Translations under genes and position numbers: made by a program
Part shown: piece after piece, positions 3,002 to 62,893 of the stretch
Position numbering within the stretch: position 1 is the stretch's first letter
Layout of the letters: every line of letters starts with the position of its first letter
Source of the DNA: Cyanidioschyzon merolae
Taxonomy: Eukaryota
Assembly (NCBI GenBank): GCA_000091205.1
Contig: AP006487.2
Reading direction: 5' to 3' (one strand)
DNA length: 64,000 nt
The notes under the pieces: model-generated
Database searches by the model: none
Seen by the model: only the letters and a program-made list of their open reading frames with translations
What the model was told of the DNA's origin: nothing

Positions 3002-3685
3002 GTGAATCTCGCACACCGCGCCACTCGATGGAACAGGGAAACAGCTCGGGTTCGTCGCTTGACGACTTGTTCACGAGCTCATGCTGAAAGACCACTGAGA
3101 CCATCACATAACAAAACCGATTTCGTTCGAAAGCCGAATCCTGTTCTCTTTATTGCCATCGATGGCACTGCATTCGAGTGCAGCATGAAACCTGTAATGG
3201 GATATGCTCCCAGAGGTTCACGTCGCGCATCTGCCATGGAAAATGTTCTTGGATTCGGACTTGAGGCAGGGCAGGAATCCATTCCGGTGGAGAGTGTGTC
3301 ACTGCTTTGCATGAAGGGCGTGTATACGAATCGATATTTTCTCGACTAGTTCTGTAGCTTTGGCTCTCGTCTATATACCTGTTTCATCACGAACATCATC
3401 GCGTTCCACGAATCGTCATGTGCTCCCAAACCAGTAAAGAGCAGGGTGCTGATAGTCCTGCGCGCCCCAACATATTCCCCATGGTTGAACCCGAATCAGT
3501 ACGTGTTCGAGGCCGTGAAGAGCGACTTCACAGAGGCGAACACACATTTCGGTTACTCGGATCGTCCTCGACAAGAACTACTGCACGTCGCTTTTGGTGC
3601 TGCGACTGAGGCCGACGGCATTGGCAGCATTTGTCGACCGAGAATCGTTGAGGTTTGCGGATCTCGACTTGCCGAACATGCATAG
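3002..3685 (+). mobile_element. Degenerate Tc1/mariner-superfamily DDE transposase relic (copy a), frameshifted across three frames
   Basis: Frame 1 (3002-3349) 'LFIAIDGTAFECSMKPVMGYAPRGSRRAS' resembles Tc1 'IVWSDESKFNLFGSDGNSWVRRPVGSRYS' (first D region). A third frame (~3361-3440) 'CFITNIIAFHESS' resembles 'FVFQQDNDPKHTS' (second D). Frame 2 (3446-3685) 'LRAPTYSPWLNPNQYVFEAVK' resembles '[21 protein letters not shown]' (third motif, E replaced by Q). Nucleotide homology to copies at ~22.9 kb and ~62.2 kb extends upstream to ~2930. Confidence 0.55.
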
Positions 3686-4676
3686 AGAAAAGGGTGGCAT
3701 ATAGCATAAAGCATGCATACGTGCGGCTTGTTTATCACCGGGCGTACACAGCGAATGCAAACGAGCTGTGCCAGGGAAATTACAGAATAAGAGGAACAAC
3801 ATTATCTCCGAGCGTTCCGAAAAGAGGTGCGTGTCGCACTTGGAGAACGTCGCCCTACTCGGACGAAACGCCTGTTCGCACGACGCTAATCGATTGAGCA
3901 TCAGGTCGGAGACGAAGTATATTCTCGGACAACACGGAGTTTACGACGACCAGGGACGCTCACCGCTCCGCCGATTGCACGATGAATATCGGCATCGGAG
4001 AAGGCGGCCATCATTCCAGGTTCCGCCGATCACGTGCTGTATTTACCCGTCGGAGACACTGACCAATACGCATGTTCCGCTGTGCACCGAGCAATCGGTG
4101 AACGTCCTCCGTTGGGTCTCTAGCACCGGTTCGTAAGCACCACGAATATCGCACAGCTTCGTAACATACCTGGGCGTGGGCGCCATGTCAGGAGAACGAA
4201 AAACGCTTCAGGACTATCGAGTGCATCTATGCGCACACGCACACGCACCCACAGAGGCCTCCCCGGCTGTTTTTTGACCGACTGGCTGCTATCGTTCCAG
4301 TTTATCCAGGCACGCCTCAAGTATGAGAGGCTGCCCCATAAAAAATATCCCGTCAGCTGGTCGATTGTTGTTTTCAGCAGCGCACACCGTCTGATCTGGA
4401 TGGCGGCGTTGAACTCTCGGTTCGGGAACTCCTTGCATGCAGTGATGCTGGTGAAACTCATCAATGTAAGGATTCCTCGAACTCGTACACTCAGCGTCAT
4501 GAAAGTCTCGTCATCATCATCCTCTTCATCTTCTTCTTCATAGCACTTGCTCGTCTTCGCTCGATAATCGGAGAGAGGAGAATTTTCCGTTTTTCCCCGA
4601 CATCCGGCTGTGACTACGCTTCGAGTTCCCCGAATTCCATGTCCACACCTTTCCCCTGAATGTTTTATCTCTTCAA

Positions 4677-5855
4677 ATGAACGTACTTCAAACACATCTG
4701 CTACAAACCGTGAAAGCACATTTGATAACACGCTCACGTAAGTGGAACACTATTGAGGTAAACGAGGACGACACCGACTCCGGGTGGCGGCAACTTGATG
4801 CGTCGTGCAACCGGACGCACGCCCGGCATGGCGCCAAAACCTACAAACGCCACTGCCTATCTGGTGCGGCGCCTAGGCTTGTTGCCATGGTGGAGTCAGC
4901 GCCCCTGGGGCTGCTTGAGTCTACCGAGGAACTTGAAAACCGTCTGCTACAATCATATGTGTCCCTGATCAAAAATCTCACGCAGCAAAACGCTTCCTCC
5001 AATCCGGAGGACGCTCACGGCGGCAGTGAGAACCCCGCAGGGGCAGCTGCGGCACCAGGTGCGACAGCCGCCGCAGAAGCAGCGGTTGCCCGGCACGAAC
5101 ACCCTGGCGGCAACGAAACTGCAAAGGCAGATGCGCTAACAGATTCTGTCTTTTCGGACCTATGCTACGTACCAGAGGACTTTATGGTGCCGCCACACTG
5201 CATACCCGTGCGAGCTGACGTCCGGTTTGCTGACTGGGACCAGATCGCAGCAGCAGCAAACGGAAACTACGACGTTATTCTGATGGACCCTCCGTGGCAG
5301 CTCGCCACCGCAAACCCAACTAGAGGTGTGGCGCTCGGCTATAACCAACTGAGCGACGAGTCGATCCTGGCTATTCCCTTGGAAAAACTGCAGCGTTGCG
5401 GACTCCTCTTGATATGGGTAATCAACGCCAAGTACCGAGTGGCTTTACAGATGTTCGAACGCTGGGGCTATCGGCTCGTCGACGAAATCGTATGGGTGAA
5501 GCTGACGGTGAATCGGCGCTTGGCGAAAAATCACGGCTTTTATCTACAGCACGCGAAAGAGACGTGCCTGGTCGGTGTGAAAGGGAACGACCTTTCCGCA
5601 TTGAGCACTGCACCGGGCATGCCCCGACCAGATGTGATTCTCAGCGAACGTCGCGGACAGAGCCAGAAACCAGATGAGCTCTATGAATGGATCGAGGCGC
5701 TCGTGCCGAACGGCAAGTACATCGAGATATTCGCCCGGAAGAATAACCTGCGCAACTTTTGGGTCAGCATTGGGAATGAGGTCACTGGCGAGAGTTTCGA
5801 ACAGGCGCTACCGCCTGAACTTTGCAAGCAGCTGCGAGAAGAACTCTCGACGTAA
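4677..5855 (+). CDS. MT-A70 family N6-adenine methyltransferase (METTL4/MTA1-like; DPPW catalytic motif)
   Basis: 'VILMDPPWQL' catalytic motif and C-terminal 'QSQKPDELYEWIEALVPNGKYIEIFARKNNLRNFWVSIGNEV' typical of MT-A70. Ala-rich low-complexity N-terminus. No METTL3-type CCCH zinc fingers. Alternative start at Met71 (nt 4887). Stop TAA at 5853-5855. Confidence 0.8.
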   Translation: MNVLQTHLLQTVKAHLITRSRKWNTIEVNEDDTDSGWRQLDASCNRTHARHGAKTYKRHCLSGAAPRLVAMVESAPLGLLESTEELENRLLQSYVSLIKNLTQQNASSNPEDAHGGSENPAGAAAAPGATAAAEAAVARHEHPGGNETAKADALTDSVFSDLCYVPEDFMVPPHCIPVRADVRFADWDQIAAAANGNYDVILMDPPWQLATANPTRGVALGYNQLSDESILAIPLEKLQRCGLLLIWVINAKYRVALQMFERWGYRLVDEIVWVKLTVNRRLAKNHGFYLQHAKETCLVGVKGNDLSALSTAPGMPRPDVILSERRGQSQKPDELYEWIEALVPNGKYIEIFARKNNLRNFWVSIGNEVTGESFEQALPPELCKQLREELST

Positions 5856-6137: not shown

Positions 6138-6336
6138 GTACTGTACTGTACTGTGCTATACTGTACTGTACTGTACTGTGCTATACTGTACTGTACTGTA
6201 CTGTGCTATACTGTACTGTACTGTACTGTGCTATACTGTACTGTACTGTACTGTGCTATACTGTACTGTACTGTGCTATACTGTACTGTGCTATACTGTA
6301 CTGTGCTATACTGTACTGTACTGTACTGTACTGTAC
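6138..6336. repeat. Pentanucleotide microsatellite (ACTGT)n with periodic GCTAT variant units, ~200 bp
   Basis: Direct reading: 'tactgtactgtactgtgctatactg...' repeated. It generates three overlapping artefactual ORFs (5901-6503, 5975-6565, 6124-6495) translating to 'TVLYCTVLYCAILYC'. Confidence 0.9.
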
Positions 6337-19487: not shown

Positions 19488-19790
19488 GTTCGAACCGCGC
19501 CCCTGTTTGTATACAAGGATATCGGAATACGAGGAAACGAGTACATGAAGCGAACCGGCGTGTACTTTCTGATGTTTGAGTCTCTTTCTTCGAACCGCGC
19601 CCCTGTTTGTATACAAGGATATCGAAATACGAGGAAACGAGTACATGAAGCGAACCGGGGTGTACTTTCTGATGTTTGAGTCTCTTTCTTCGAACCGCGC
19701 CCCTGTTTGTATACAAGGATATCGAAATACGAGGAAACGAGTACATGAAGCGAACCGGGGTGTACTTTCTGATGTTTGAGTCTCTTTCCA
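19488..19790. repeat. Tandem repeat, 100-bp unit x 3
   Basis: 'cgaaccgcgc' recurs at 19491, 19591 and 19691. Units are near-identical, with g/a and c/g variants. They produce phase-shifted artefactual ORFs (19464-19679, 19576-19779, 19371-19646). Confidence 0.9.
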
Positions 19791-20285
19791 TTTTTATCAA
19801 CAGTAGCCTTTTCGGGATTTTTCTTTGAATGCTTGCTTTTCCGCTCCGTTGTTTTCGGATTTTGAAAGCACTCGCCGGGTGCGTCCGGTGAGCTACGTTT
19901 TCATCAGTCCAAGAGTGTTGATAGCAGCGATCATGAGACAGTTTTCGACGACTCCAGCTGCTTCAGCGTATTGCATACGCAGGTGGTGGTTGCGATGTAC
20001 GCTTCGTCTGCCATTTTCGTTTGCTCTCTTGACAGCGTCAGAGCGCTTTTCTCAGCGGTGATAATTGACTATGCACGGGTCTTCTCATATGCCCATAACG
20101 TATAGTTCTCTGGGCGCCATCTGGTGCCTCGTGATGGCTTGCTTCATCGTCTGGTATATGCCTCTGGTGGCTGCCGAAAGTCTCCCTGGATGCCCTCCAC
20201 CGTTTCTGCGCTCAGTGCCGGACACAACGATCACGGGGATCATCTGGGCAATGCCCCAGCGAGTGCACTGTCCACAGCACGGGCA

Positions 20286-20530
20286 AGTGCACAATCGTTC
20301 ATTCGATAGAGGATTTGCGGAACTCGATGTTTTCCATGGCGAAACAAGCACCAGACGGGAAATCCTGGCCAGAGAACAAGCCGATAGCAATCGATCAGAG
20401 AACGATCCGTACTTGCAAATCGGTGACGCATTTCGACTCGAAGCGACCGCTGCAATGGCTCGTGTCCGAGTTCGAGACCGTTTTCCATGAAAATAGAAGA
20501 GATGGAAGCGTCTGGGAGCATATCCCATGA
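20286..20530 (+). repeat. Dispersed ~125-bp repeat family, copy A (with internal partial duplication)
   Basis: 'cattcgatagaggatttgcggaactcgatgttttccatggcgaaacaagc...aaatcctggccagagaacaagccgatagcaatcgatc' aligns to copies at 43590, 48335 (reverse complement) and 55508. Confidence 0.6.
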
Positions 20531-20968
20531 GAGGTGCAATGCAGCTGTTGATTGCCGCTTCGTCAATCGCCTGGAAGACAGAAGAATTTATCTTTCGATC
20601 AGATTAGATTATGTAACGTGACGAGTTTAGTGAACGGCCAACAAAGGCCTCTGAACAAGTCATCGATGGATAACGTCGATGCTTTTTTCATAGTCCATTC
20701 AGGGGCGCGAGTTGCAGTCAGTGGGCGTCGCCTTGACATAGAAAGATCGAACACTTAAAGCATGTGCGAGTCGAGGACACTAAACGTAAGGAACGGGAAA
20801 GAGTGCAAGTTTATACGTATGCGCCGGACAATGATACCATTCAGTCTACGAACCCCTGTTCAAGGGTATCCTCAATCATTTTGATTCTGTTGACGTAAAC
20901 CAGGAGCAGAGCGTTGAATATCCTACTCTGTAAAGACGACCGAGCATCCCTAAGCTCGTTTACATCTG

Positions 20969-22228
20969 TTGACTTTTATTGCTCCGCTTCAGGTGTCGAA
21001 GCAGTACATCAAAAAAAAAATAGAGTTCGGAAGAAACATTGCAAGGCAGCAACCGAGCGCATCGTCCACTGCTGTCTTTAGATTTGACGCAGACGAGACC
21101 AGTCTTTGCGAGCTGGACGCTACGAGTGGACGTTCCGTTTCAGGGAGGTGTACAAGCGCTTTGAAAGCGATGCAGGGCTGTCAGGTTTGTGTTTGTTTTG
21201 GTACCGGGCCTCGTCTGGTACGAGTTCTGAGCAGTTGTTCTACAAAGACTGGTGCGGTTTGGCTGCGAGCAAACTTGCTCGGATCCCGGTTGGCAAGCGC
21301 GTTTGCACGCGTGAATACCACAGCAGCTCGACTAGCGGGTCGTAGGAGGCCACATAGGTCTATGCAGCGTTCCTGGTTGCTGCTGAAGGACCCCGGTCAT
21401 GAGCGTACACGACCAGAGAGAAGTAGCGTTGGCGCTTGGTATAGCCGACCGTCTGCGGCGGTTGAGCGTGGAGGCGGTTTCTACGTTCCCGGTCTGGACG
21501 GGCCACAGCTGCGGTTTCTGCTCGGACTGACGTGCTTGTTCCTGTTGGCGCTCAATCATTTTGTCTCAGCTGACGGCGTAGACTGGGACGTGCTGGGACA
21601 ATGGTCTGCGCTGCGCACCAGTGAACTGCTGGCAACGGCTGCAGCTGTGAGCCTGGTGAGTGTTGCACGGCTGGAGGCCAGCGCTACCAGACAGCGCGAA
21701 TCCGCAGCCGAAACGCGCACAGAGTTACCTTTCGCCACTGATGATTTCGCCAAAGGCGACACAGCGCCAGCTCCCATCTCAGATGCGACCGGTTTGAACT
21801 TTCTCGTCCGAGCTCTCGCAAACCTGCTAGAGATACGTGTGCCAATTGTAATCGTTCTAGTGAACGGTGCGAATGGTGAAATCAGGCTTTTGCATGCTTC
21901 TCGCGACGTGGCGCTAGCGGTGCGCGCAGAGGCTGCAGTGACTGGTGCATCAACGCGAGTCCACGACTATGGCGAGATCGTCGCGCGAGTCCTTGAGGCA
22001 CAGCGTGGTATTTGCATAGCTAACTTGGAAGAATTGCCCCCTGAGGTATGTTTTCCTTTTCTGGAACCAGGGCGACCTGGTGGGGCCATAGTAGAACCGC
22101 TGAGGGGATCCAGCGGCTCGCCTGTTCAGCGACTCGGATCAGGCGATTGGCTCCTCGTGATTGCGACCCCGATCCCAGCAGCGCTGACCAATACTGATTA
22201 TCGATGGGTCCGGGCGTTGTGCCACTAG
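20969..22228 (+). CDS. Hypothetical membrane protein (S/T/R-rich N-terminus, one predicted TM helix, conserved-looking C-terminal domain)
   Basis: 419-aa ORF. TM 'LRFLLGLTCLFLLALNHFV'. An A10 homopolymer lies inside the first 20 codons, so the real start is probably Met68 (21170) or Met132 (21362). Confidence 0.4.
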   Translation: MTFIAPLQVSKQYIKKKIEFGRNIARQQPSASSTAVFRFDADETSLCELDATSGRSVSGRCTSALKAMQGCQVCVCFGTGPRLVRVLSSCSTKTGAVWLRANLLGSRLASAFARVNTTAARLAGRRRPHRSMQRSWLLLKDPGHERTRPERSSVGAWYSRPSAAVERGGGFYVPGLDGPQLRFLLGLTCLFLLALNHFVSADGVDWDVLGQWSALRTSELLATAAAVSLVSVARLEASATRQRESAAETRTELPFATDDFAKGDTAPAPISDATGLNFLVRALANLLEIRVPIVIVLVNGANGEIRLLHASRDVALAVRAEAAVTGASTRVHDYGEIVARVLEAQRGICIANLEELPPEVCFPFLEPGRPGGAIVEPLRGSSGSPVQRLGSGDWLLVIATPIPAALTNTDYRWVRALCH

Positions 22229-22910
22229 CTTACGAACGCAAAGGGATACGGGGCGTTGACGACCCCCAGTGAGTTCTGGAGTTGTCAGAGAGGATTCCGC
22301 AGACTCTTCAGAGTCCAGACTTGTTTTCGGGCCGTAAGACGCATCCCATGCGCGCATCCGGGCCTGGGTGCTCGTCGCCCGGTCTTTTGGGGTGTTCATG
22401 ACCAGCGTTGCACCAAAGAGGGCGACATTCATGACTGCAATTTGTCTGGTTTTTTCGACTCGGCGGTACGCTGGAGTAAGGACTTGTCTGTGGGATTCCA
22501 GCCGTTGACCCCGATTGCAGCTGCGCTCAAAGGCGATGTGAGCGCTCAGAGCGGAGCTCGCGTGCTCGTTAACTGCGAAAAATGCTTCCGGATGCGTGCT
22601 CGGTGCTCTACACCGGTGTCAGGTTAAACTGGAACACAAAACTGCACGATGTGTTCTCGAACAGTCGTTTTGTTTCGGAATTTTTTTTAAATGTACAGGT
22701 TCAAAATTCGACGTGGAGCGATAAGCATTCACGGATTCTTGCATGGAGCTAGGATTCTCGGTCAGTTTTTTGGAGTGGCCGTTTCGACGCTTACTGCTGG
22801 AATCGATTGCGTCACTAGAATCAAGGCGATTCGCGACGTTCTCGAACAAGGCTTCGTTAAATATCTGATATCAGTCTCCGATGCATCCGTAAAATCTCCT
22901 CTCTTCTCTC

Positions 22911-23396
22911 TTGCTTGTGTGTAGCATTTCCGAGTCACGCATTCTTCAAGCTTACATTCTTTCTGTATTACGGCAACTTGTGAGCGCAGCAATTCGCGCG
23001 GCTGGATGTATGAGAAACATCATTGACTGCGCCTTGGCGACTTTTTCAAACACTGATGCCGACACTTCACGGAAAGTTTCACATCAAAAAATCGAATCCA
23101 GTAGGAAGGCATATCCTCATGTCTCTGTAACCATCGACGAAACGGCATACGACAGCAGCATGAAAGCGCGCACGGATATGCCTCCAGAAGCTCCAGTCGC
23201 CTCCTTCGGTGAGAACACGTCTCGGATCCAGGCTGTAGCGACTGCAACAATCGCTTCCGGTGAAGCGTACGTCGCCGCTTTGCGACAAGGGAGCGTTGTC
23301 GAATCGGCATTTCTCGACTTGATATCCAGGTTGCATTCACTTTTCGGGACTTGTTTTATCGTGGAACGCTTGGCGTTCCACAAAACCTCTATCTAA
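22911..23396 (+). mobile_element. Degenerate Tc1/mariner-like transposase relic (copy b), truncated after the second D motif
   Basis: 'VSVTIDETAYDSSMKARTDMPPE' and 'CFIVERLAFHKTS' are homologous to copies a and c at about 70% nucleotide identity. Homology continues upstream to ~22860. Confidence 0.5.
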
Positions 23397-42073: not shown

Positions 42074-43364
42074 GCGAGCCAGCACGCGACTCGACCCGGA
42101 ACGTTTGGGCATGTCACGAGATATTGCAGCGTCAACCGATCGCTATACAAGTTACAGAAGCGACGTGAACGGCTTGCGGTTTCGTTGCGTACCTTTGCGT
42201 CGGCGATTCTATTGCACTTTATCATGTGCGACATGGAAACCTGAATAGGCGAATTTCGCGGCTTTGCCGGAAGCGAAGCACGACAGCGGATCTTTTGCGA
42301 TCGACGGGCAGGAACATGCACCAGCACCTTTGAATATAAGCGGTGTCTGGGCGCTACCCTTGACGATCAGCCAGTGTTTTTTCGCATGTACAAGCAGTGG
42401 ATCATGGGCGCCACCGGCCCGACACATTGACGACTACACTCTCCTGGGATATGCACCAATGCAATGCAGCGTGCATGATCGCATGCCTACTGCGCACCAG
42501 CGGGATATGGCGGCGTCTTGTGATTCCAGTTCGGACAACGCCGATGCATTCATTCATGACCTTGGGCGCGTTTCAAACAGTGTTAGCACAGAGCGCTCAT
42601 TTAATGGTTATGGATCTGGGTGTCGGGATTTCTGTTCCATGTGACAAGCTCGGTTAGTGTCTGTATCGAAAGCAAGCTAGAGGGCGGGGCTCGGTTTGGG
42701 GCCCGAGAGGGCCTCCATGGTTTCGAGTATAGTCACGCATTGTCCATTCTCCAGCTCAATCGAAATTCCAGTGACCCAGACAACCTTCGATATAATTGTC
42801 TTAAAAGTGCTCCCATATACATCATTGAGCATGAGATGACCCGGTGATTTGCACCCTGCTCGATACAGCTTTGATTCAGGCCACTGTGCTTGCTCTTGGC
42901 TGGCGAGGAAGCCTCACTGGGGCATCGCGCACTACGAGGCCTTGCGTAAACAAGTGGGCACCAAGATCTACGGGCTTTCCGCGCCCAATAAGGAACGAAA
43001 TGCGATTGGTCCACGAACCGAACTCGGGCGTAGAAGTAGAAGCTCGGGCGCGTTCCCATTGCCATCAACATCAGCGATTGTCGGCTGTTTCCGCGACTGA
43101 ATCGTTTTCCTCTCTCTCTCATGCCTGACTTTGAATATACTGGCCTCTGCGTTCCCTCTAGTTCCGTTGTCAGCAGTCGAAGGATATTGATGGCAGTGTT
43201 CCATTCGCGATTTCGCTGCTCCTGGATGCTTTCTGAGCAATGCATGCTGAGGAGGGAGTCGCTATCTACGCTTCGCTTTCCATGTTCATCTTTTTCATAT
43301 ATAGCCCCGGTGCGCTCTCTGCAGCGCTGACTCCTTGCTTCGGCCAGGTGTTATCCGAGGCCCA

Positions 43365-43392
43365 GCACACGCACACACACACACACACACAC
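43365..43392. repeat. (CA)n dinucleotide microsatellite
   Basis: 'cacgcacacacacacacacacacac' read directly. Confidence 0.7.
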
Positions 43393-43589
43393 CATTGTCC
43401 GGTTGGCTTCCTGTGTTGTGTGGTTGCTTGTCTCGTCTCTCGGCATGTGCAATTGCCGGACGCAGAAGGCTCCGCTCGATACCCGGCTCCGTGTCCGCGT
43501 CTTGTTCAATAACCTCAGATTACCGGCCTTTTTTTTTCTGAATGATCCGATCTGCGAGTACGCTGTCCGCCACATGCATAAGCGCAGGC

Positions 43590-43705
43590 CGCCTCCCTGG
43601 ACAGAGGAATTCGTTAAACGCGACGTTTTCCATGACCAATCGACTTGCGAAAAGCAAATCCAGGCTGGAGATCAAGTCGAGAGATTTCGATCGGTCTACA
43701 CTTGC
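43590..43705 (+). repeat. Dispersed ~125-bp repeat family, copy B
   Basis: 'cgacgttttccatgaccaatcgacttgcgaaaagcaaatccaggctggagatcaagtcgagagatttcgatcggtctacacttgcttc'. A T10 homopolymer lies ~50 bp upstream. Confidence 0.6.
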
Positions 43706-44711
43706 TTCACGACAAGAGGGTGACGCATGTGGCACAAGAAGTGATCGCTGCCACGACTGCATTCTCCCTTCTATACCGTTCTGCATGCAAACACAATTGA
43801 CGTGAACCTCTTGGAATGTGTCTCGTGGCATGTCACATGTTCGCGTCAAACGCTTTTTGTGCATGGAGACACAGCTATGCGTCTATAGATTCGGAACGGA
43901 ATCGCTTATCTGACGTGACTGGTTTAGTGAGCCAATCGGCATGAGCTTCTGAACAGGACGCCTATGGGCGACAACACGCTACATCCATCGCCAAAACAGT
44001 GACGCACATTGCTACGTCCACAAGTTGGCTTGAAGCCGAATCATCGAAAAATTGAAGCTTGCATCATTTCATCACGCTACACGTACGGAGACGAGAAAAC
44101 GGGAAGCTTGCACGTCCGCATCGCACCATGCTATCGGTTATTTCACGAAGCCGAGGTCGATGGCTTTGCGGATCGTCTTGATTCCGACGCAATACCGCAT
44201 TCCAGTGGCATATACTCGAATACATCTCGCCAGGAAGACGACCGAGAACCCGTAAACCCACCGACAGATCCATTCACCTCGATGGAGACACCTCGAATAT
44301 CGCACCTCGATATCCAGAAAACCCGTTCGGGAGAAATCGGTACACAGGAACATAGCCAGCAGTTCAGTGCTCCAGTTTAATCCGACAAGGGTTTGGCAGG
44401 GAGCTTTAGGCGTTCTGTGCCAGTCATCGGGCGCTCGACGATTGCAAGAGATGCAAAGTTCCACGTTGCACACCTTTTGATCGGCAGGACGCAAGCATGA
44501 TGCATTGGATTTGTTTTCGAGCGAGCAAACGTCTTTGTCGTTGTCTGTTTACTGGAGCGGCGAATCCAGCACGAGTTCGTCACTTTTCCGCCAAGAGTCC
44601 GGTGCATCTGCCACCGTCAGCATATGGTGCATGTATCAATGCCAAGGCCCGACGTAACCAGCAATGCACATTTGCCTGCGTCCCTGCTCCAGTGATATGC
44701 TCATGTCGAGG

Positions 44712-46115: not shown

Positions 46116-48334
46116 GCCGTTGCAGCCGAAAAATCCGCACCATATACGTTTCCTTCAAGGAGGAAAACGCGTTTGCCTGCGTCGCACGCCGAACAGGGCC
46201 TTGAGCCTGCAGCTCACAACCGCTCCCGTGCAACCTTTTCTTTTCCTATTCACAAGGTTAGGAGAAGCGACGTTTCAATTCCGTTGCTGAGCCGCCTCGG
46301 TTTGGAAGTATGGCGACTGCGTACACGCTCTGGTTCCGCCTTTCTGCTCGAACGTGTCATACTCGTACGCAGCGAAACGCGTCAACGCAAAGTCGCGTGT
46401 TTCCCAGAGCGCCGCCAATTTTGACGCACCCCAAGGGACACGTGCTGTGTACGTGTATGGATACGTGTGCGTTTTTCATGAATTGACGAGACGTTTACAT
46501 AGGCCAGCGTTCTTCGATTGTGCGCTTTTTCTCTCCTTTCTTTTTCGATTTTTGTTTCAGTGCACGATGAAGCATCCATTGACCCATTCCCCGCTTCGAA
46601 GTTACATTTCCCGTACTGGTTCTCGGATATTCTGGTCGCTTCATACGTCCTATCGTGTGTGCCTAGTACCTACCCTAATCATACGCCTTTGCGCGTGAAC
46701 CGCTGGAGCAGATAGGTCATAAGGACAGAACGGCGTTTCGGGAACACACAGAGGGCGTCGGCTCGAGGCGCGCTTTACCCGACGTAAAGTCGGAATTCAT
46801 CATTATTATGTGCTCGGACAGTCTGCGGATGCAGTCTTGCCTTCGCTGCACGACACGCTGGAGAAACTTGGCTGTTAGGATGAATTCTGGGAGCCGCCTC
46901 TCTCCTTCGTGATCATGCATGGAATGCGTTGTCGGTTGACAATGCGGGTTCTGTGCTTGACACGCGCTAGTGGGTAGGCGCAGAAAGCGCACTAGGTCCG
47001 TGTGCGTATCCGATACGCTGGACCTTGCGCCTAGAATGCCATTGCCGGTACTGCACGCAGCGCTCGTCGCTCGAGGCAGCAATGCTCGCTAACGATCGCT
47101 GAGCAGTGTGCGCCCAGGGTCGCCTGCTCGCGGAGCTCCTGATGCGGTTTAGCGCGATGTCCCGCTTTCGACGGCACTGGGAATGCTCATCGCCCGCCAC
47201 AGCGGATGCGCGCTATCCCTTCGAGGCGGACGCTGTGGGAGATTTGCCACGAATACTGGAGTGGCGCGGCGTAACGAAGTATACAACCACGGTGCAACTG
47301 TACGGCTACAATGCCCGTGTGATGGTGGCGCTGTGTCTCCAGCAGGATGCACACACCGGTTTCGACTTTGTGTGCTCTCGACAGCTGAAGTATGACGTTC
47401 AAGCACGATCATCGATGCTTGGAAACTCTTCTTTTGCCAAGTGTATCGCCTGATTTTTGTACTGCAGTGGAGGATCTCGCAATACTTCACGGGTGACTCG
47501 AGAGACTACCTGCATACTCGCTGGTAATATGTCCGTGCAATGGACACGAGACTCGTGTAAAACGCGCCGTTTTCGGCGCTTCCCATCATTTGTCTGAATT
47601 TTGCAAGAAAACGGATTCAACACGCTCGCAGTGCAATTCGGTTCAGAAACCGTGATGGCAGTCACGTTGACGTGGCCTCTCTGGCTGTCAGAGGCACGCG
47701 ATCCCCGAATTTCAAGTTTGTATGGAGATCGGTCTCAAACATAAGGACAGTGACCTGGATGGCATCCTCTGCCGCGATCCGGTCGGAGCCGTCCACGAGA
47801 CTTATCGGATGACTCTGCAACAGCACTGACCAGTGCACAGCGCCGGCTGGAGGCGATATCGTTCTCACTGGATCACCGACACCGCGCACAGGATTGTCTG
47901 GTTCGCGCAATGCCCTGGGTACGCTTCACCACGGTTACCTATGAAGCGTGCATTGCAAGATTTGCGTTTGAGAAGGACAGATTTCATGGCGGAGCGAAAT
48001 CAGCCATCTAACTGGACGACGTCTTAACTGCGAGAACCGCATGCCCCGTGCAGCCGTTGCGGCCTTGGTTTCTGTCGGCGAGTGCGGATGCATATCGTGA
48101 TGGCATGGGCGGCATTCTCCGTTGATGTCGTAGTGAAATGGAACGCTGCATTCTTCGCCCAGACCCTAAATTTCTATTTTTTCGAACATAATTTGGATGT
48201 GCAGTCTAGACATTCGAATTGCAGCAATATGGGGTTAAGGACTTACACGTCGTTTCAGGGTTCTCGTTCGTCTTTCAGGTGTGTGGCTCCTTCGACGCTT
48301 CGCCGGTGGAATTCGTTACCGTACCGATCTTGGT

Positions 48335-48450
48335 TCAAGTAGAGCGTAGACAAATCGAAATTTCTCGACCAGATATCTAGCCTGGATTTTGCTTCTGAAA
48401 ATTGTCTCATCATGGAAGTCATTGCGAATTCCAAATCCGCTGTTGAACGG
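48335..48450 (-). repeat. Dispersed ~125-bp repeat family, copy C (inverted orientation)
   Basis: The reverse complement reads 'ggatttggaattcgcaatgacttccatgatgagacaattttcagaagcaaaatccaggctagatatctggtcgagaaatttcgatttgtctacgctc', aligning with copies B and D. Confidence 0.55.
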
Positions 48451-48526
48451 ACCCGCAGGCATATGCATGTGCAACTGACGAAGGAATGGCCAAGAGAGCC
48501 AACCCGATGAAGACCGCGATCGTAGG

Positions 48527-48527
<1 letters not shown>

Positions 48528-48559
<32 letters not shown>
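48528..48559. repeat. (CTG)n trinucleotide microsatellite (~11 units)
   Basis: 'tgctgctgctgctgctgctgctgctgctgctg' read directly. Confidence 0.8.
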
Positions 48560-48560
<1 letters not shown>

Positions 48561-49512
48561 CTCCAAAACGAACAAATGCATCGATGGGAGCGTACTTTAC
48601 CGGTCAGGGGCATGCGCCGAGCGATGACGCGAGCTTTCACACGGCAAATGGCCGTTCCACAAAGAGCAGATGTGGTGCACAACTGGGAACACTTGACCGC
48701 ACGCAAGTGTCACAAAGGCGGAGGCCGCACAGGGGCTCGTGAACTAGAAGATGAAAGAAAGTAAGAGGGGCGTGGAACGCAACCTTTGTCTCTGCATGCC
48801 TTGTGTTGATAACAGCCGGAGGCGACGAATTCGGGACCTGGTGGCTGCAACCGACACCCGCCGACCGCTGCCAATGGAGCTAGAGAGGAAAACAGCGACG
48901 TACGTGGAGAACGCTGGAACCAAGTAAGTAAGAAAAGAAGCACTAGGACCAAAGTCCCTCAAATGCTTTTGTTGGTGATCGTGGCAACAGATCCGAACTT
49001 TAGTTTGCTCACCCGCATGGGCAAATCGGACCTCTCCAATGCTATCCTGAAATGGCTGAATCAGAGAATACCCCCGTGTCCATCGCTGTCCATTTTCGAA
49101 CCTGACGTTGCAGGCAAAACCATGCGACGCCACCATTTCTCGATAAGTACAGTATTCTCCCTATATATATAGTTTATCTCTCCGATGCACCAGGGTGCGC
49201 GCAACCTGGACAAAGAGCCCATCAGCAGGCACCTGATCCGGACAGCCATCGCGCGGCTTGCCTGCATCAGATGCAACGGATACGCGAAATACGGTCGCGC
49301 TTGCTGCGCTCGATACGCATCCCGTGATCCGTCGACAGAATCCCCGGATCACGGCTGCATCCACTCTGTTTCCAGGATGATGCCAGAACTCATGCGACAT
49401 ACGCACGCGCCGAATTTATTGGTGTTCTTTCTTCTACAAGCATCGATATTGAGTCGAGGACTGGTTTTCAAGTTGCACTTACGCCGGACGTTATTGCACC
49501 TCACACACAGAG

Positions 49513-54221: not shown

Positions 54222-54472
54222 CGCGCGTATTGTGCTGGTATCGACTCGCATGTAGACTGCGCGTATTGTGCTGGTATCGACTCGCATGTAGACTGCGCGT
54301 ATTGTGCTGGTATCGACTCGCATGTAGACTGCGCGTATTGTGCTGGTATCGACTCGCATGTAGGCTGCGCGTATTGTGCTGGTATCGACTCGCATTTAGG
54401 CTGCGCGTATTGTGCTGGTATCGACTCGCATGTAGGCTGCGCGTATTGTGCTGGTATCGACTCGCATGTCGG
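54222..54472. repeat. Tandem repeat, 36-bp unit x ~7, preceded by an alternating-GC tract
   Basis: 'gcgtattgtgctggtatcgactcgcatgtagactgc' repeated with period 36, with 'gtaggctgc' variants. 'gcgcgtgtgcgcgcgcgtacgcgcg' at 54204-54228. Confidence 0.9.
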
Positions 54473-55507
54473 TCTCGTGACAGGAGTTTTGTGCGATCCA
54501 GTGCGAGGTTTCGCGGGAGGCGTCACGAGCGCAGGGCGTATGCCGTCAGCAGCCACGAAACGTTCAGAACAGCGTTCAACGCTGAGCGTTCTATTATGAT
54601 GTCAAGGGCTTAGATGCGTGAAAGATGTGGTAGTGGTCCATCGGAAGTTCAGGTGCAGATCCGTTTGAGAGAATTTTTCCTGTTTAATCTTTGGGAACTG
54701 TGAAGTTCGGACAAGTCAACTTTGAAGACCTAGATTGTTCCACCTGCAGATCGCAATCAAACAGAAACGTTTTGAGTTTGCATAGGCGCGCATGGATCGG
54801 GGCACTGGAGCAAACAGCCAGATCCGTCGATACGGCATCCTTTGTGCAAACTGCCTGACGAGGTGTGCGCGTCGTGGACGCAGAGAGCACAGGGGCACCC
54901 GACCGAGCGACTATCCACCGCGTATCTACACCCAAACTGAAACAAAATAGATCGCGTCTAGTTGTATAATTGTGGCGTAAACGCTAATGTTTGGGAGGCT
55001 CTCCACTGACCGTACCGCTAGATACTACAGGATTCGGATACGAATGCTTCATTTTTCGCTTTGTCAAATTCGAGTTTACATACACCGGCCTCTCCTTTGT
55101 TTCCGGTTTCGTTGGCAGCATTCAAGGGATGCTGATGGCATCGTTAAAGTCTCGCTTTCGCAGCTTTCGGCTGTTGTCGGCATATTCCGTCCAGAGACGG
55201 TCGTTGCGGTTAGAGTTTTGCTTACCGTACACATCTCTATGATGCTCAGCTTCGGTGCGTGCTTTGCAGCGGTAACACATGGATGTGGCCGGGAATTCTC
55301 ATCCATCGACCACACCTCCATGTTCTCCGAGCATTGCCTTATACCGCATGAACGTTTACACCATCGTTCGATACATGCCCTTGACGGGTACTGGAGGCTT
55401 CCGAAGATGTACTCGCGGGCGTCCGCGCCCGACGCATCACGGTGCGGTCACGAGCTCCTTCCAGGCGATGCCTTTGGCGAGTGCTTTATCGGTTGATCCA
55501 GCCAGCG

Positions 55508-55640
55508 CATGCAGGCGCATTCGATAGAGGATTTGCGAAATGCGATGTTGTTCATTGTGAGACGATTACAGTAAGGAAAATTTGGGTTGGAGATCAAGTC
55601 AAGAGTTTCGGAACCGTCTACACCCGCTTTGCAGAAAAAA
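55508..55640 (+). repeat. Dispersed ~125-bp repeat family, copy D
   Basis: 'cattcgatagaggatttgcgaaatgcgatgttgttcattg...ggagatcaagtcaagagtttcggaaccgtctacacccgctttgcagaaaaaaagcgg'. Ends in an A7 run. Confidence 0.6.
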
Positions 55641-57828
55641 AGCGGTAACGCAATATCCACAAGAAACGATCGCTACGATGGTTCAAGACCGATTCCCGGA
55701 CCTTTCTCCATACAATGGAGCGGGAGCCTCTGGGAGCATACGCTCTCCAAGGCAATGCGTTGCTGTGGAATGCGGTGTCAGTGACGGCTACTAAGGGAGG
55801 AGCATTTGTCCTCCGAACGAACTCGATCATATGACCTGGAACTTGCAGTGAATTGTGGGCATGAGCTCGTGAAGCGGTCATCCATGGTTTGCATCGGCCT
55901 TAGGTCGTCCCCGGTCCAGCAGCGCGAATCGGTGCGCCTACGAGTCGCTTTGGACGAGAGGGATCGAATACTTGAGGATCTAGTAGTTTGAGCATTCTAT
56001 AAGTAACGATCGGAAATGAATCAATACTTTTAAGTATAAATAGGAGAGCGATATCGCTGATTTCACGATTTCTCGTACAAGGGCGTCGCGAATCAGCTTG
56101 ATCCCGGTAATGAATTCCATCCGCAAAGCGTCGATAGAACCACTCAGAAAAGACAACTGAAGGTCCTCAGACCAAGTGTGTATGCTTAAGCCTTTATTGC
56201 TGTACTTTGAAAGTCGATGGTTTACCGCTATATAGTGTAAAACGAAGAACGTTTCACGACCATGGAGGGTAGACACGTATACCCAAGCACTGACGCCTCC
56301 TATTCTTTTCGGACTGGCCGCCTGCGATCAGGTTCAGGTTTTATGCGGGTACTCTTCGAGTCCGAGGGACTGTCCGACGAATTTGTATCGCGTCAGCTTC
56401 GCGGGCCTCTCAGTCAGCACCGTGCATTTCCTGATATTGAAGGCGGCGTTCAAGGCTCGATTCACTCCCTCCGTGCGTGCGCTGCCTCCGGTGGAACGCA
56501 CCAGCGTAAGAATTCCACGAATTCGTGCCCGCCGTTCCATTTGGTGCTCTGCCAGCGCTCCGCGCGTTTCTAGCACTGAAGCGCTCCGCTGCTGTCCTGC
56601 ATCAAGTCTTTGCGAAGCGTAAACCCACGCTTATTCCTTATTCGTTTTGAAAATCAACGCGTTTTTCTGCGTTTAAGTGAGACCCTGCCTGGATCGAGGA
56701 AGATTTGCATAAGAAAGACGACACTTGCTCCGGTGTCACCGGGTGCTGAACGCCTCAGCGATTCGCCCAGGGGGACGCTCATTACTTTTCTCGATAGCAA
56801 ATACGCCTTCGATACAGTTGCAACATAGAGTGTACAGAGGAATGGAACGCAGCTCCACCCCCGATAGAATCCGCAAAATCTCGAATGCGAAGGGAATCGT
56901 GAAATTCCACGTCGACCAACAGAAGGACATCCGAAGATATCAGGGAAAAAGTCTTTCGTGATTTGATGAATTGTTTGGAGCTGCTGGATGAGCCTTCGCT
57001 ACGGGCGAAACTGGTGCCGCCAAAAGAATCCACTGCCGCTGGGACAGTTGATGATGCCATAGTTCTCTTCGCGTTCGACCGTGTCTAGAACAGGCTCCCG
57101 CTCCGCGAGTACCCGTATACGCTCCGGCCTTATTATCCGAGGCGAGTGTCATCGGCTGGAAGAACCAACGTGCCTGTAATTCATAACGATCGCGCCGTTC
57201 CAGGAACACTTTAGTAGTTGCGATGTCGGTGGAAGATGGCAGTACGTGAACTACAACTTTGTTTTGCGATTGTGCCCCAGTGTTTTCAGGACCACAAGGT
57301 CAAGCTATTGAGAAACAGAGACGACCGTGGTTACAAGGATCGTCGCTTTTGCTTTACCCACGGTGATTTATGGGTCGTTTTTTCACTTGACCGCAAGCAT
57401 TGTCTAACAATATCGGATTTTGGCGCTGAGCCCATCTACTCGCTTCTTTCATTTCCCTCAACCATCTGAGTCCTGTGTTCTGACTGACCTGAACACGGAT
57501 TGCAGATCTCCGTGCGCTGTCCAGTAAAGAATATGTATCCTTCAGACGATTCGTCTACGATCTATACGATTCAATGCACCGTGATTTCGCTCTCCATCTA
57601 GCCATCGCATCAGAGGGGAAGCAAAATTGTGCTGAACGACGAGAGGCCAGTACCGACCGGAACGCCGACAAAACGCTTTCCTGGGCGCTGCAGCCCAGTG
57701 CTTCAAGCGAAATGGGGGCCACCGAGCAGCGGACCCAGAGCTTCTAGCCTTTCGGACCCCTTTTCATTCTTTACGAGTATCGCTGGCTGAGCGCGGACGT
57801 CTTCGTTGTCTCACCGAGAACAACCCGG

Positions 57829-61376: not shown

Positions 61377-62236
61377 ATTCCGCATGGGCGACGTGCCTCT
61401 TGCGACAGCCGCAGATGAGCGGTTCACGGCACCTGCAGCCGATCTGCTGGTGCAGGCTGTATCATCGCTGCCGGCAGCATGCGTATTGGGAATATCGAGC
61501 GATGCATCTTCATGATAAACCATAGCGGCAGGCATACGAGAGATATGATGGACACCCGGGGCATCATGGGCGCGCTTTTTCATCATAAACAGCAGCCGCA
61601 TACCATGGAGCGCTATTCAAAACCCCGCTGTAGATGCGAGCGTTGCTCTTGTCGGCGTCCGCGAACCCCGGAGTTGGATTGGTGTGTCAAGCTCATGGTT
61701 GCTGATGCATTGATCCACAGACCAGGGATCCATCAGATTCATAGCGTCCATTCGGAGCGCATACACATAGTTTTCCATGAACGCTTGCTTGCAGCAGGCT
61801 CGCTGGCGCAGCGGCACCGAGGAGTGAACAAGGCCTTGAACCGACCTAGTCGCTCGGTGTAACCTCGAGGCTCGAGACCGACTCGACTACAGCAGTGAAC
61901 TAGTCGTTCTATGTTTGCTTTTAGAATTACTCGCCGAACGTTTTCTTAGATGTGCTGCCTTGAAATTCGAAGAGCTGCAGTCGAGGATGACGGACTCAGA
62001 CGTAGTGTCAGGGGGGTGCGGTCGTCTTTTCGGAGTGGCGCTTTCGACGTTTTGACGCTGGGATTCCTTACGTCGTCGAAATCCAGGTGATTGGCGATGT
62101 CTTCGAACCGGGACTCGTCAGATTACCGAATTCGTACCCAACGGATCGATAGAAGTTTCATTTCATCTCCTCTGCCTGATTGTAGCGTGTTCATATCAAG
62201 CATTCTTCAAGGTTTCAATCTTCCTGGTTCAAGGTA

Positions 62237-62893
62237 ATGCATGGAGCCAGCAACTCGTGCAAATTCGTTGACGATGCAAAAAATGGACGTCGAGCACTGA
62301 AGGCCTGTTCACAAGCTCATGTCGACAGTTCACAGAAAGTTCCACGTCCTATAATCGAATCCGGCCGAGAGACGAATACTCTTGTGTTTGTGCCCATCGG
62401 CGAAACCGCATTTCACAGCAGCATGATACGTCCCACGAGCTATACTCCTAAAGACCTCTGTCTTTATTGTCTGTATGGTAAAGGGTCTTGGACTCGGACT
62501 TGGGTTATCGAAGCGATCGCTTCCCGTGCAGCGTGCGTCGTCGGTTCGCACGAAGACAGCGTAGACGATTCGCAATTTCTCAACTTGATATCCAGCCTCA
62601 TTTCGCCTTCTCCTCCTTGTTTCATCATGGATAGCATCGCGTTCCATGAATCCTCTGTCGAGTGCGACGTCGGGCACTTGTGTGTACAGCGCACAGAGCG
62701 CTCGCCTATGGGAACGCTCAGAACACGATCGGGAGTCTACGGCAGGGCACTCAGTGCGGGTACAGTGAAGGGTAACAATTGGATCCATCAGTGTCCATCA
62801 AGAGCATATACTGAGCGATGCCGTGTGTCCTTACGCGGGACCAGGGGGCTCTTGAAGGAACAGGAGCTGTGGTGGACATATTCCAGCTGCTGA
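62237..62893 (+). mobile_element. Degenerate Tc1/mariner-like transposase relic (copy c)
   Basis: 'LVFVPIGETAFHSSMIRPTSYTPK' and 'CFIMDSIAFHESS' are homologous to copies a and b at nucleotide level. Homology starts near 62150. Confidence 0.5.

What the first reader, a model, noticed from the sequence alone, without database searches (positions are those of the whole stretch)
3002..62893. Three diverged, frameshifted copies of one Tc1/mariner-like DDE transposon family
Loci at ~2930-3700, ~22860-23400 and ~62150-62900 share about 70% nucleotide identity, for example 'gcattcgagtgcagcatgaaacc' / 'gcatacgacagcagcatgaaagc' / 'gcatttcacagcagcatgatacg'. All are in + orientation. Their conceptual translations align to the Tc1 transposase catalytic core: the first-D region '...DGTAFE...GYAPRGSR', the second-D region 'CFIMDSIAFHESS' (Tc1 'FVFQQDNDPKHTS'), and in copy a the third motif 'SPWLNPNQ' (Tc1 'SPDLNPIE'), where the catalytic E is replaced by Q. 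Copy a is split across three reading frames. All copies look dead. The ~70% identity points to old, independent decay of an ancient insertion burst rather than recent duplication.
Basis: partly seen in the sequence, partly recalled or inferred. Interest (0 to 1): 0.5.

Follow-up and report, generated by a model that had tools for sequence, protein, structure and literature searches.

The report
Decayed mariner-type transposons carrying a Fanzor fragment
The window, from chromosome 5 of the red alga Cyanidioschyzon merolae, holds seven (not three) dead copies of one old cut-and-paste transposon family whose right-hand part is a leftover of a Fanzor/TnpB nuclease gene; this is an ordinary kind of element, but far more common here than the published "almost transposon-free" picture of this genome suggests.

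Summary
The window is C. merolae 10D chromosome 5. The three loci share 59-65% nucleotide identity (E 1e-42 to 1e-75). A profile of them finds seven copies, on both strands, all between genes.

A 13-copy consensus (window plus metagenome copies) rebuilds a 1,377-bp element:
- 25-bp terminal inverted repeats, CACCCGTGTCAGA[T/A]TAAAATGGAAC, matching 24/25 between the ends.
- TA on both flanks.
- An IS630/Tc1/mariner-type transposase frame (Pfam DDE_3, 45 bits, above threshold).

In six of the seven copies the transposase stops just after the second catalytic Asp. There it joins the last ~181 codons of a Fanzor1/TnpB-like gene (profile comparison 96.9%, E 1.6e-10). Only copy a keeps the transposase C-terminus (YSPWLNPNQ).

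Differences between copies are equal at all three codon positions. Variation between strains matches other intergenic DNA. So the copies decayed neutrally after one old burst. No copy was detected in 43 kb of syntenic Cyanidiococcus DNA.

This is a new member of a known kind (mariner elements carrying Fanzor1, Bao & Jurka 2013). The copy density conflicts with the published count of eight class II elements.

The parts
2642..3941 (+). Copy a, the 'transposase-only' variant. Left TIR at 2642-2666. Transposase remnant at about 2719-3682, including AIDGTAFE, TCFITNIIAFHESS and YSPWLNPNQ (catalytic E replaced by Q), ending AEHA*. Degenerate right TIR at about 3920-3941. TA at 2640-2641 and 3942-3943.
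19714..21095 (-). Copy d. Transposase-derived part about 21009-20300. Fanzor-like part about 20314-19775. Its right end plus flank is tandemly triplicated (19489-19788).
22611..23977 (+). Copy b, the best-preserved ends. Left TIR: TA|CACCGGTGTCAGGTTAAACTGGAAC (24/27 to consensus including the TA). A recognisable right TIR. TA at 22609-22610 and 23978-23979. Transposase part 22691-23396. Fanzor-like part 23404-23889.
42982..44393 (-). Copy f. Left TIR recognisable (score 16 against a null 99th percentile of 10). Transposase part about 44313-43590. Fanzor-like part 43583-43039. Metagenome contigs break inside it.
48105..49060 (+). Copy g, with an internal deletion of about 480 bp (4-copy profile positions 140 to 621). 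Left TIR remnant at 48126-48144. Fanzor-like part 48456-48891. Contains a (TGC)10 microsatellite.
54929..56326 (-). Copy e. Transposase part about 56227-55540. Fanzor-like part 55532-54990. Its 5' end abuts a CMe-1A 3' fragment.
61869..63338 (+). Copy c. Transposase part 61950-62665, including the 218-aa ORF 62237-62893 that metagenome gene calls flag as weak DDE_3. Fanzor-like part 62650-63269, with an internal 92-bp tandem duplication (62931-63106).

Best explanation
These are seven neutrally decaying copies of one class II (cut-and-paste) transposon family of the IS630/Tc1/mariner superfamily, in the nuclear genome of Cyanidioschyzon merolae.

Reconstructed element. It is about 1.38 kb long. 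It has 25-bp terminal inverted repeats beginning CACCCGTG, and it inserted at TA, duplicating it. It carries a ~95-bp leader and a transposase ORF with helix-turn-helix-like N-terminal segments and the DDE_3 core (AIDETAF ... CFIMDNIAFHKSS).

Two variants. In the dominant variant (six of seven window copies) the transposase is cut off right after the second catalytic Asp. It is joined to the last ~181 codons of a Fanzor1 (eukaryotic TnpB) gene: the QRA motif, the GYGTG motif, the RuvC-II Glu, a CxxC..CxxC zinc ribbon and the RuvC-III RDxNAAxNI motif. About 50 bp follow, ending in the right TIR. Copy a is a second variant that keeps the transposase C-terminus and has no Fanzor part.

Inferred history. 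The dominant variant is an internal-deletion, non-autonomous derivative of a ~3.5-kb parent that encoded both a mariner-type transposase and a Fanzor1, the architecture of PUl-1 in Pythium. A transposase supplied in trans mobilised it through the shared TIRs. It amplified in one burst in the Cyanidioschyzon lineage after the split from Cyanidiococcus, and has drifted since.

Shown: repeat family, ends, TA flanks, both protein homologies, neutrality, and no detectable copy in the syntenic Cyanidiococcus DNA sampled.
Inferred: the deletion-derivative origin, trans-mobilisation, the post-split timing of the burst, and genome-wide abundance.
For: - Family and copies: self-BLAST and nhmmer.
- Host: exact protein matches to C. 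merolae 10D chromosome 5 genes.
- Transposase: consensus hits Pfam DDE_3 at E 1.2e-11 / 4.1e-11 (45 and 43 bits, gathering score 28.6) and NCBIfam IS630 at E 3.3e-14. blastp to the PUl-1 mariner transposase gives E 7e-10 and aligns all three catalytic motifs. Metagenome gene calls flag the copy c ORF as weak DDE_3.
- Ends: conservation among 13 copies rises and falls exactly at a 24/25 inverted repeat, with TA the plurality dinucleotide on both flanks. Copies a and b show TA on both sides.
- Fanzor part: Pfam PF07282 E 1e-5 (26.0 bits, gathering score 26.3). blastp to CMe-1 Fanzor1 E 1e-6 and to PUl-1 Fanzor1 E 2e-5. hhalign of the 13-copy profile against three Fanzor1 C-termini gives 96.9%, E 1.6e-10, 136 columns. 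A longer Fanzor1-like pseudogene with RuvC-I GLDPGR is 74% identical over 58 aa.
- Neutrality: differences from consensus are 0.256/0.252/0.256 at codon positions 1/2/3. Differences from strains that are 99.2% identical are 10.8 per kb in the elements, 10.9 in other intergenic DNA and 4.3 in coding sequence.
- Lineage: no hit in 43 kb of syntenic Cyanidiococcus DNA, even with nhmmer --max at E<=100, and the intergenic regions there are much shorter.
- Precedent: Bao & Jurka 2013 (PMC3627910) describe mariner elements carrying Fanzor1.
Against: - No intact copy and no full-length parent was found, so the deletion-derivative model rests on analogy with PUl-1.
- TIRs are at noise level in copies c, d and e.
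- TA flanks are only the plurality base: T in 4 of 10 and A in 7 of 11 copies on the left, T in 5 of 13 and A in 6 of 13 on the right.
- The Pfam hit for the Fanzor part is 0.3 bits under threshold, and no single copy reaches it.
- No precise empty site could be aligned, because Cyanidiococcus intergenic DNA is saturated.
- In most copies the second catalytic residue is E or N; D is restored only in the 13-copy consensus.
- Word-indexed protein search and PDB sequence search with the consensus found nothing.
Confidence: 0.85

Rival explanations
1. The copies are a family of functional host genes or regulatory modules derived from a transposase. The apparent frameshifts would then be introns or sequencing noise, and the copies would be kept because they serve neighbouring genes.
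For: All seven copies are intergenic. Five of seven have a gene downstream in the same orientation. The coding part is slightly more conserved between copies than the leader and 3' part (25% against 32-37% difference from consensus).
Against: Every copy has stops or frameshifts at different places. There is no codon-position bias in the differences. Between-strain variation equals that of other intergenic DNA and is 2.5 times that of coding sequence. No copy is detectable in syntenic Cyanidiococcus regions whose flanking genes are conserved. According to the genome paper, only 0.5% of C. merolae genes have introns.
Confidence: 0.04
2. These are copies of the already described C. merolae repeats: the 253-copy 'WSV486-like' element of Nozaki 2007, which is CMe-1A / TE-N2_CMe of Bao & Jurka 2013.
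For: Both carry Fanzor1-related sequence. The Fanzor-like part of the consensus aligns to the CMe-1 Fanzor1 C-terminus (E 1e-6). WSSV holds a Fanzor1, so the 253-copy element is most probably CMe-1A.
Against: There is no significant nucleotide similarity between the 1,377-bp consensus and the 3,169-bp CMe-1A consensus (best blastn E 0.93). CMe-1A has no TIRs and no transposase, and this family has both. Protein identity in the Fanzor part is only about 25%. Separate CMe-1A fragments lie elsewhere in the window.
Confidence: 0.05
3. The Fanzor-like reading of the 3' part is a chance resemblance. The elements would then be plain mariner/IS630 elements with a diverged non-coding or transposase-derived 3' region.
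For: The Pfam hit is marginal (26.0 bits against a gathering score of 26.3) and is seen only in the consensus. There is no PDB hit.
Against: Three independent comparisons agree and align the same motifs (QRA, YG.G, E, CxxC..CxxC, RDxNAAxNI): blastp to two Fanzor1 proteins, hhalign at 96.9% and E 1.6e-10, and database ORFs with 52-74% identity that extend into a RuvC-I GLDPGR motif. The consensus has a long open frame there in a frame different from the transposase frame.
Confidence: 0.06

Closest known systems
PUl-1 and related 'Fanzor1 in Tc/mariner' elements (Pythium ultimum; Bao & Jurka 2013, PMC3627910)
   Same: TIRs of about 24-26 bp, TA target-site duplication, a mariner/IS630-type DDE transposase at the 5' side and Fanzor1 at the 3' side in the same orientation. 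Both proteins are detectably homologous to those of this family (transposase E 7e-10, Fanzor C-terminus E 2e-5).
   Different: PUl-1 is 3,620 bp with both ORFs complete. Here the consensus is 1,377 bp, the transposase lacks its last ~85 residues and the Fanzor lacks its N-terminal two thirds or more. All copies are dead. The host is a red alga, not an oomycete. Identity is only 22-25%.
CMe-1A / TE-N2_CMe of C. merolae (Bao & Jurka 2013), which is probably the 253-copy WSV486-like element of Nozaki et al. 2007
   Same: Same genome, old and dispersed (~80% identity to consensus), and containing Fanzor1.
   Different: No nucleotide similarity. CMe-1A is 3.2 kb, has no TIRs, no transposase and an intact-capable 734-aa Fanzor1. 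This family is more diverged (70-75% to consensus) and belongs to a classifiable superfamily.
IS630 family / Tc1 transposases (Pfam DDE_3 PF13358; NCBIfam NF033545)
   Same: DDE_3 core with DE(T/S)xF, DNxxxH and YSPxLNP(I/V)E-type motifs. The small size (~320 aa in copy a), TA target and short TIRs also match.
   Different: The NCBIfam score of 53 bits is far below the IS630 equivalog cut-off of 100. The third catalytic residue is Q in the only copy that keeps it. The sub-family within the superfamily was not determined.
The eight 'class II transposase-related elements' reported for C. merolae (Nozaki et al. 2007, PMC1955436)
   Same: They are described as closest to bacterial transposases with weak BLASTX E-values (0.071 to 6e-7). 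That is what the best-preserved copies of this family would give.
   Different: Their identity could not be checked, because no coordinates were available. Seven copies in 64 kb is incompatible with eight in 16.5 Mb if they are the same family counted completely.

Membership tests
IS630/Tc1/mariner (ITm) superfamily DNA transposon | DDE_3-type (RNase H-fold) transposase domain | tested here: met
   The consensus hits PF13358 at 45.1 and 43.4 bits (gathering score 28.6), E about 1e-11. Copy c alone gives 26.7 bits and copy a 18.3 bits. NCBIfam IS630 gives E 3.3e-14 but below its cut-off.
IS630/Tc1/mariner (ITm) superfamily DNA transposon | Intact catalytic triad D, D, E/D | tested here: not met
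   The first D is present in most copies. The second D is present in copies c and h and in the 13-copy consensus, but is E or N in the others. The third residue survives only in copy a, as Q. No extant copy can be active.
IS630/Tc1/mariner (ITm) superfamily DNA transposon | Terminal inverted repeats at the element ends | tested here: met
   In the 13-copy consensus, 24 of 25 positions match between the ends, exactly where inter-copy conservation starts and stops. Individually above a shuffled-position null: copy b at both ends, and copies a, f and g at the left end.
IS630/Tc1/mariner (ITm) superfamily DNA transposon | TA target-site duplication | tested here: met
   TA is the plurality dinucleotide directly outside both TIRs in the 13-copy alignment, and is present on both sides of copies a and b. 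Support is moderate because of decay.
IS630/Tc1/mariner (ITm) superfamily DNA transposon | N-terminal helix-turn-helix DNA-binding domain | tested here: inconclusive
   Only weak hits: HTH_Tnp_Tc3_2 E 0.026, HTH_33 0.057, HTH_50 0.092. The motif ...FGV..STLCRW... is seen by eye.
IS630/Tc1/mariner (ITm) superfamily DNA transposon | Evidence of mobility (filled versus empty orthologous sites) | tested here: inconclusive
   Nothing detectable at six orthologous intergenic regions of Cyanidiococcus, two of which are about 1.5-2.9 kb shorter. Intergenic DNA there is not alignable, so no precise empty site was obtained. All copies are fixed among strains that are 99%-identical.
Fanzor1 / TnpB (OMEGA nuclease) gene | C-terminal RuvC-II Glu, zinc ribbon (TNB) and RuvC-III RD motif | tested here: met
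   PF07282 E 1e-5, 26.0 bits (gathering score 26.3). hhalign against Fanzor1 C-termini gives 96.9%, E 1.6e-10. The consensus reads ..VVDIWEHLTIAKCHRCEG..YHLCMKCVD..RNRDLNAAINILR.
Fanzor1 / TnpB (OMEGA nuclease) gene | Full-length protein with RuvC-I Asp and WED/REC parts | tested here: not met
   Only about 181 C-terminal codons are present. The junction with the transposase lies directly after DNIAFHKSS. This is a fragment, not a gene.
Fanzor1 / TnpB (OMEGA nuclease) gene | Guide (omega) RNA encoded at the 3' end | tested here: inconclusive
   The fold of the consensus 3' 293 nt gives z = -0.62 against shuffles, so there is no support. This is not a decisive test for a decayed element.
CMe-1A / TE-N2_CMe (C. 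merolae repeats) | Nucleotide similarity to the published consensus | tested here: not met
   Best blastn E 0.93 between the consensus sequences. Distinct CMe-1A fragments lie elsewhere in the window.
MITE | Short (under ~800 bp) element without coding remnant | tested here: not met
   The element is 1.3-1.47 kb and made almost wholly of two ORF remnants. P-MITE reports no MITEs in this genome.

The most novel reading that the evidence does not exclude
The dominant variant kept exactly the transposase-binding ends plus the 3' end of the Fanzor gene and the right end of the element. That is where Fanzor/TnpB guide (omega) RNAs are encoded. On this reading these non-autonomous elements were parasites of both machines of the parent: mobilised by its transposase, and retained or homed by its RNA-guided Fanzor nuclease acting in trans. 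That would help explain how one family filled a large share of the intergenic DNA (by extrapolation, over 1,000 copies and about a tenth of the genome) of a eukaryote famed for having almost no transposons.
Probability: 0.1. Interest if true: 0.7.

Novelty: new member of a known kind. Interest (0 to 1): 0.35.

Why it matters
C. merolae is widely cited as a minimal eukaryotic genome. The genome paper reports transposons at 0.7% of the genome, eight class II elements in all, and a MITE survey found none.

This window has one decayed mariner/Fanzor element every ~9 kb (7 in 64 kb, about 14% of the window). Flanks of unrelated copies from metagenomes show about one per 12 kb. If that density holds genome-wide, which is an extrapolation from roughly 100 kb, much of the 'unexplained' intergenic DNA of this compact genome is dead transposon. 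The genome's simplicity would then reflect old invasion and decay rather than absence of mobile DNA.

The family also adds a red-algal case to the known association between mariner-type elements and Fanzor1 RNA-guided nucleases. It provides a dated, lineage-specific burst (no copy detected in the syntenic Cyanidiococcus DNA sampled). It is of modest interest to specialists: the kind of element is known and every copy is dead.

Tried and rejected
- TIR search on single copies and on the 8-copy consensus found nothing convincing. The TIRs appeared only after six metagenome copies were added.
- The word-indexed protein search with the transposase consensus returned no hit.
The single consensus worked.
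- PDB sequence searches with both consensus proteins returned no hit.
- Pfam on the Fanzor-like translations of individual copies returned no TNB hit.
- The RNA fold of the 3' end gave no excess stability.
- Empty-site alignment with Cyanidiococcus failed: only the flanking genes align.
- The search for a full-length parent found only short ORFs from other decayed copies, plus a transposase-less, frameshifted ~480-aa Fanzor1-like pseudogene on another contig.
- Considered and rejected, for the reasons given under the rival explanations: a functional gene family, identity with CMe-1A, and chance similarity. Bacterial contamination was also rejected, because the copies sit between eukaryotic genes in the finished chromosome and in independent metagenome assemblies.
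- The full HMMER representative search and structure prediction were not used. They accept only window sequences, and single decayed copies would be too weak.


Full report
**Where the window comes from.** Ten ORFs of the window were looked up by exact sequence. Nine are annotated proteins of Cyanidioschyzon merolae strain 10D on a 528,682-bp record, which is chromosome 5 (genes CME114C to CME138C and beyond). The genes are typical eukaryotic and plastid-related ones: EH domain, MAD1, MT-A70, a peroxisomal-type ABC transporter and CCB2/CCB4. G+C is 52-60%.

**Checking the observation.** Self-BLAST confirms that the three loci are related:
- b vs c: 680 bp at 65% identity (E 2e-29).
- a vs b: 291 bp at 67%.
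- a vs c: 369 bp at 65%.
- A fourth, inverted match lies near 20,400-20,800.

With more sensitive settings the pairwise alignments grow to 477-1,071 bp at 59-63% identity, with E 1e-42 to 1e-75. A profile HMM built from four copies then finds seven copies in the window, four on the plus strand and three on the minus strand, one of them (g) with an internal deletion. All lie between genes.

**Is it a transposase?** Single copies give weak but consistent DDE_3 hits: copy c E 5.7e-6, copy a E 2.3e-3, copies b and d none. The majority consensus of four copies restores one almost open reading frame. Completed with the C-terminus of copy a, it hits Pfam DDE_3 at 45 bits (gathering score 28.6; E 1.2e-11). 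It also hits the NCBIfam IS630 transposase model at E 3.3e-14, which is below that model's strict cut-off. Independent gene calls on metagenome contigs flag the orthologue of the copy c ORF as weak DDE_3. The consensus reads AIDETAF for the first Asp and CFIMDNIAFHKSS for the second.

**More copies and the ends of the element.** One scan of metagenome contigs with the consensus protein returned 24 loci. These collapse to six further distinct near-full-length copies plus fragments. Several 6-kb loci hold two copies. In a 13-copy alignment, column conservation jumps from background (about 0.52) to about 0.7 and falls back at two sharp points 1,377 bp apart. The 25 bases at the two points are inverted repeats of each other, matching 24/25: CACCCGTGTCAGATTAAAATGGAAC at the left, and the reverse complement of CACCCGTGTCAGAATAAAATGGAAC at the right. 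The consensus dinucleotide immediately outside each is TA.

In the window, four ends score above the 99th percentile of a positional null: copy b at both ends, with TA on both sides, and copies a, f and g at the left end. Copy a also has TA on both sides. The ends of c, d and e are too decayed to score. TIRs plus a TA duplication plus a DDE_3 transposase are the defining features of the IS630/Tc1/mariner superfamily.

**An unexpected second part.** Downstream of the second Asp motif, copy a and the other copies stop being alignable. In the other copies the 13-copy consensus has a long open frame, different from the transposase frame. It reads:

..YRMEQRALACAADRVLAEGIAQKKPVIVGYGTGRGNGGGH..GGGCVVDIWEHLTIAKCHRCEG..YHLCMKCVDNSRKLRNRDLNAAINILR...

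This is the pattern of the C-terminal third of TnpB/Fanzor nucleases: the RuvC-II Glu, a C4 zinc ribbon and the RuvC-III RD motif. The evidence is:
- Pfam PF07282 (Cas12f1-like TNB, formerly OrfB_Zn_ribbon): E 1e-5, 26.0 bits against a gathering score of 26.3.
- blastp to the C. merolae CMe-1 Fanzor1, residues 539-681 of 734: E 1e-6.
- blastp to the Pythium PUl-1 Fanzor1: E 2e-5. Both sequences were taken from the supplement of Bao & Jurka 2013.
- Profile-profile comparison of 13 frame-corrected translations against three Fanzor1 C-termini: probability 96.9%, E 1.6e-10, 136 columns.
- A profile search of the protein database found only short ORFs from other decayed copies. It also found a longer, frameshifted Fanzor1-like pseudogene on another contig. 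That one reaches upstream to a RuvC-I GLDPGR motif and is 74% identical over 58 residues to this consensus.

Individual window copies are too decayed to hit Pfam on their own. All six carry the segment when compared with the consensus, a partly circular comparison because the consensus was built from them.

**Relation to known repeats of this genome.** The genome paper reports only eight class II elements, 'closest to bacterial transposases' at E 0.071 to 6e-7. It also reports 253 copies of a 3.2-kb element with a truncated ORF resembling WSSV protein WSV486. Bao & Jurka list a Fanzor1 in WSSV. They describe a C. merolae Fanzor1 family, CMe-1A: 3,169 bp, about 150 copies, about 80% identical to its consensus, no TIRs, unclassified. 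They also describe TE-N2_CMe, with about 70 copies. So the 253-copy element is most probably CMe-1A.

The present family is not CMe-1A. The two consensus sequences have no significant nucleotide similarity, and separate CMe-1A fragments lie elsewhere in the window. Bao & Jurka also show that Fanzor1 genes are often carried by mariner-type elements. One example is PUl-1 (3,620 bp, 24-bp TIRs, TA TSD, transposase followed by Fanzor1). The consensus transposase here aligns to the PUl-1 transposase at E 7e-10 across all three catalytic motifs.

The simplest model, inferred and not shown, is this. The dominant 1.38-kb variant is an internal-deletion derivative of such a two-gene parent. It keeps both TIRs, the first ~236 codons of the transposase and the last ~181 codons of the Fanzor. 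Copy a is a sister variant that keeps the whole transposase and lacks the Fanzor.

**How the copies evolved.** Differences from the consensus are the same at codon positions 1, 2 and 3: 0.256/0.252/0.256 over 173 codons and 0.234/0.241/0.246 over 62 codons. Hence the divergence accumulated without selection on the protein. Copies are 64-75% identical to the 8-copy consensus (copy a lowest, partly because its 3' part is not homologous to the others), and pairwise distances are similar for all pairs.

Compared with metagenome strains about 99.2% identical to 10D, differences per kb are 10.8 in the elements, 10.9 in other intergenic DNA and 4.3 in coding sequence. All seven copies are present in those strains. 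So the copies are fixed and evolve neutrally today.

In 43 kb of syntenic DNA from Cyanidiococcus yangmingshanensis, gene order is conserved and coding sequences are 71-79% identical. Neither the family profile (nhmmer --max, E up to 100) nor the protein consensuses find anything. The region covers the orthologous positions of six of the seven copies, and two of those intergenic regions are about 1.5 and 2.9 kb shorter. The family therefore most likely spread in the Cyanidioschyzon lineage after that split. Loss from Cyanidiococcus cannot be formally excluded, because its intergenic DNA is not alignable.

**Abundance.** There are seven copies in 64 kb, about 9 kb of sequence or 14% of the window. 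One more lies 2 kb upstream of the window. Three further copies occur in about 35 kb of flanks around unrelated copies. Together this points to roughly one copy per 9-12 kb. Extrapolated to 16.5 Mb, that would be over a thousand copies and about a tenth of the genome. This is an inference from about 0.6% of the genome and needs a whole-genome scan. It is hard to reconcile with the published figure of eight class II elements and 0.7% transposons. The published BLASTX approach would have detected only the best-preserved copies.

**What does not fit or remains open.**
- No active or full-length member was found.
- The second catalytic residue is Glu or Asn in most copies, and Asp appears only in copies c and h and in the larger consensus.
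- The third residue is Gln in the one copy that has it.
- The HTH domains give only weak hits.
- The idea that the retained Fanzor 3' end encodes a guide RNA has no support from folding (z = -0.62).
- Whether Repbase already holds this family could not be checked. The accessible literature does not describe it.

**Verdict.** This is a real, ordinary kind of feature: a decayed IS630/Tc1/mariner-type DNA transposon family, here fused to a Fanzor1 fragment. It is a new member of a known kind. The interest is moderate to low, and comes mainly from the copy density in a genome reputed to be nearly free of transposons.

Noticed in passing
window 40070-40725 (+), 46596-46834 (+), 56292-56634 (-), 4252-4483 (-): Fragments of the published C. 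merolae Fanzor1 element CMe-1A. The first matches its 5' 635-bp part (TE-N2_CMe-like, 74% over 670 bp). The last two match its 3' end (Fanzor C-terminus, tblastn E 1e-21 and 2e-8). One lies ~310 bp from copy a; the other overlaps the 5' end of copy e.
   Followed up: partly
window 19489-19788: A 100-bp unit repeated 3 times at 99% identity. It spans the last ~75 bp of copy d (degenerate right TIR), the TA and 23 bp of flank. A 99%-identical strain (L014 14797-15394) has 6 units, so the array length appears polymorphic. A metagenome assembly artefact is not excluded.
   Followed up: partly
window 29849-31186: A 114-bp unit repeated 11.7 times at 96% identity, directly upstream of the fructose-1,6-bisphosphatase gene and open in long ORFs on both strands. 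The metagenome contig L002 appears to hold only about 2 units. This could be real variation or assembly collapse.
   Followed up: no
window 53038-54087 (-), compared with L010 12391-13440 (+): The epimerase/dehydratase gene is inverted relative to its neighbours when compared with Cyanidiococcus. In C. merolae it is bracketed by tandem arrays (52525-52772, 82 bp x3; 54223-54469, 36 bp x6.9) and lies next to copy e.
   Followed up: no
window 42982-44393 (copy f); contig ends of L002-L006 and start of L015: Several independent metagenome contigs end at window positions ~43,711-43,747, and another starts at ~44,252, all inside copy f. Assemblies seem to break at this repeat.
   Followed up: no
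L045 6001-7400 (metagenome contig Ga0307940_1001143): A frameshifted Fanzor1-like pseudogene of about 480 aa, with RuvC-I GLDPGR, no transposase upstream and none of this family's transposase part. It lies between a peptidase M16 gene and another ORF. It is 74% identical over 58 aa to the Fanzor part of the window family and has a ~50-aa insertion between the zinc-ribbon halves.
   Followed up: partly
window 62931-63106, 48528-48559 and 6138-6336: A 92-bp tandem duplication lies inside the Fanzor-like part of copy c. A (TGC)10 microsatellite lies inside copy g. A GTACT-based 25-bp array lies downstream of the MT-A70 gene.
   Followed up: no
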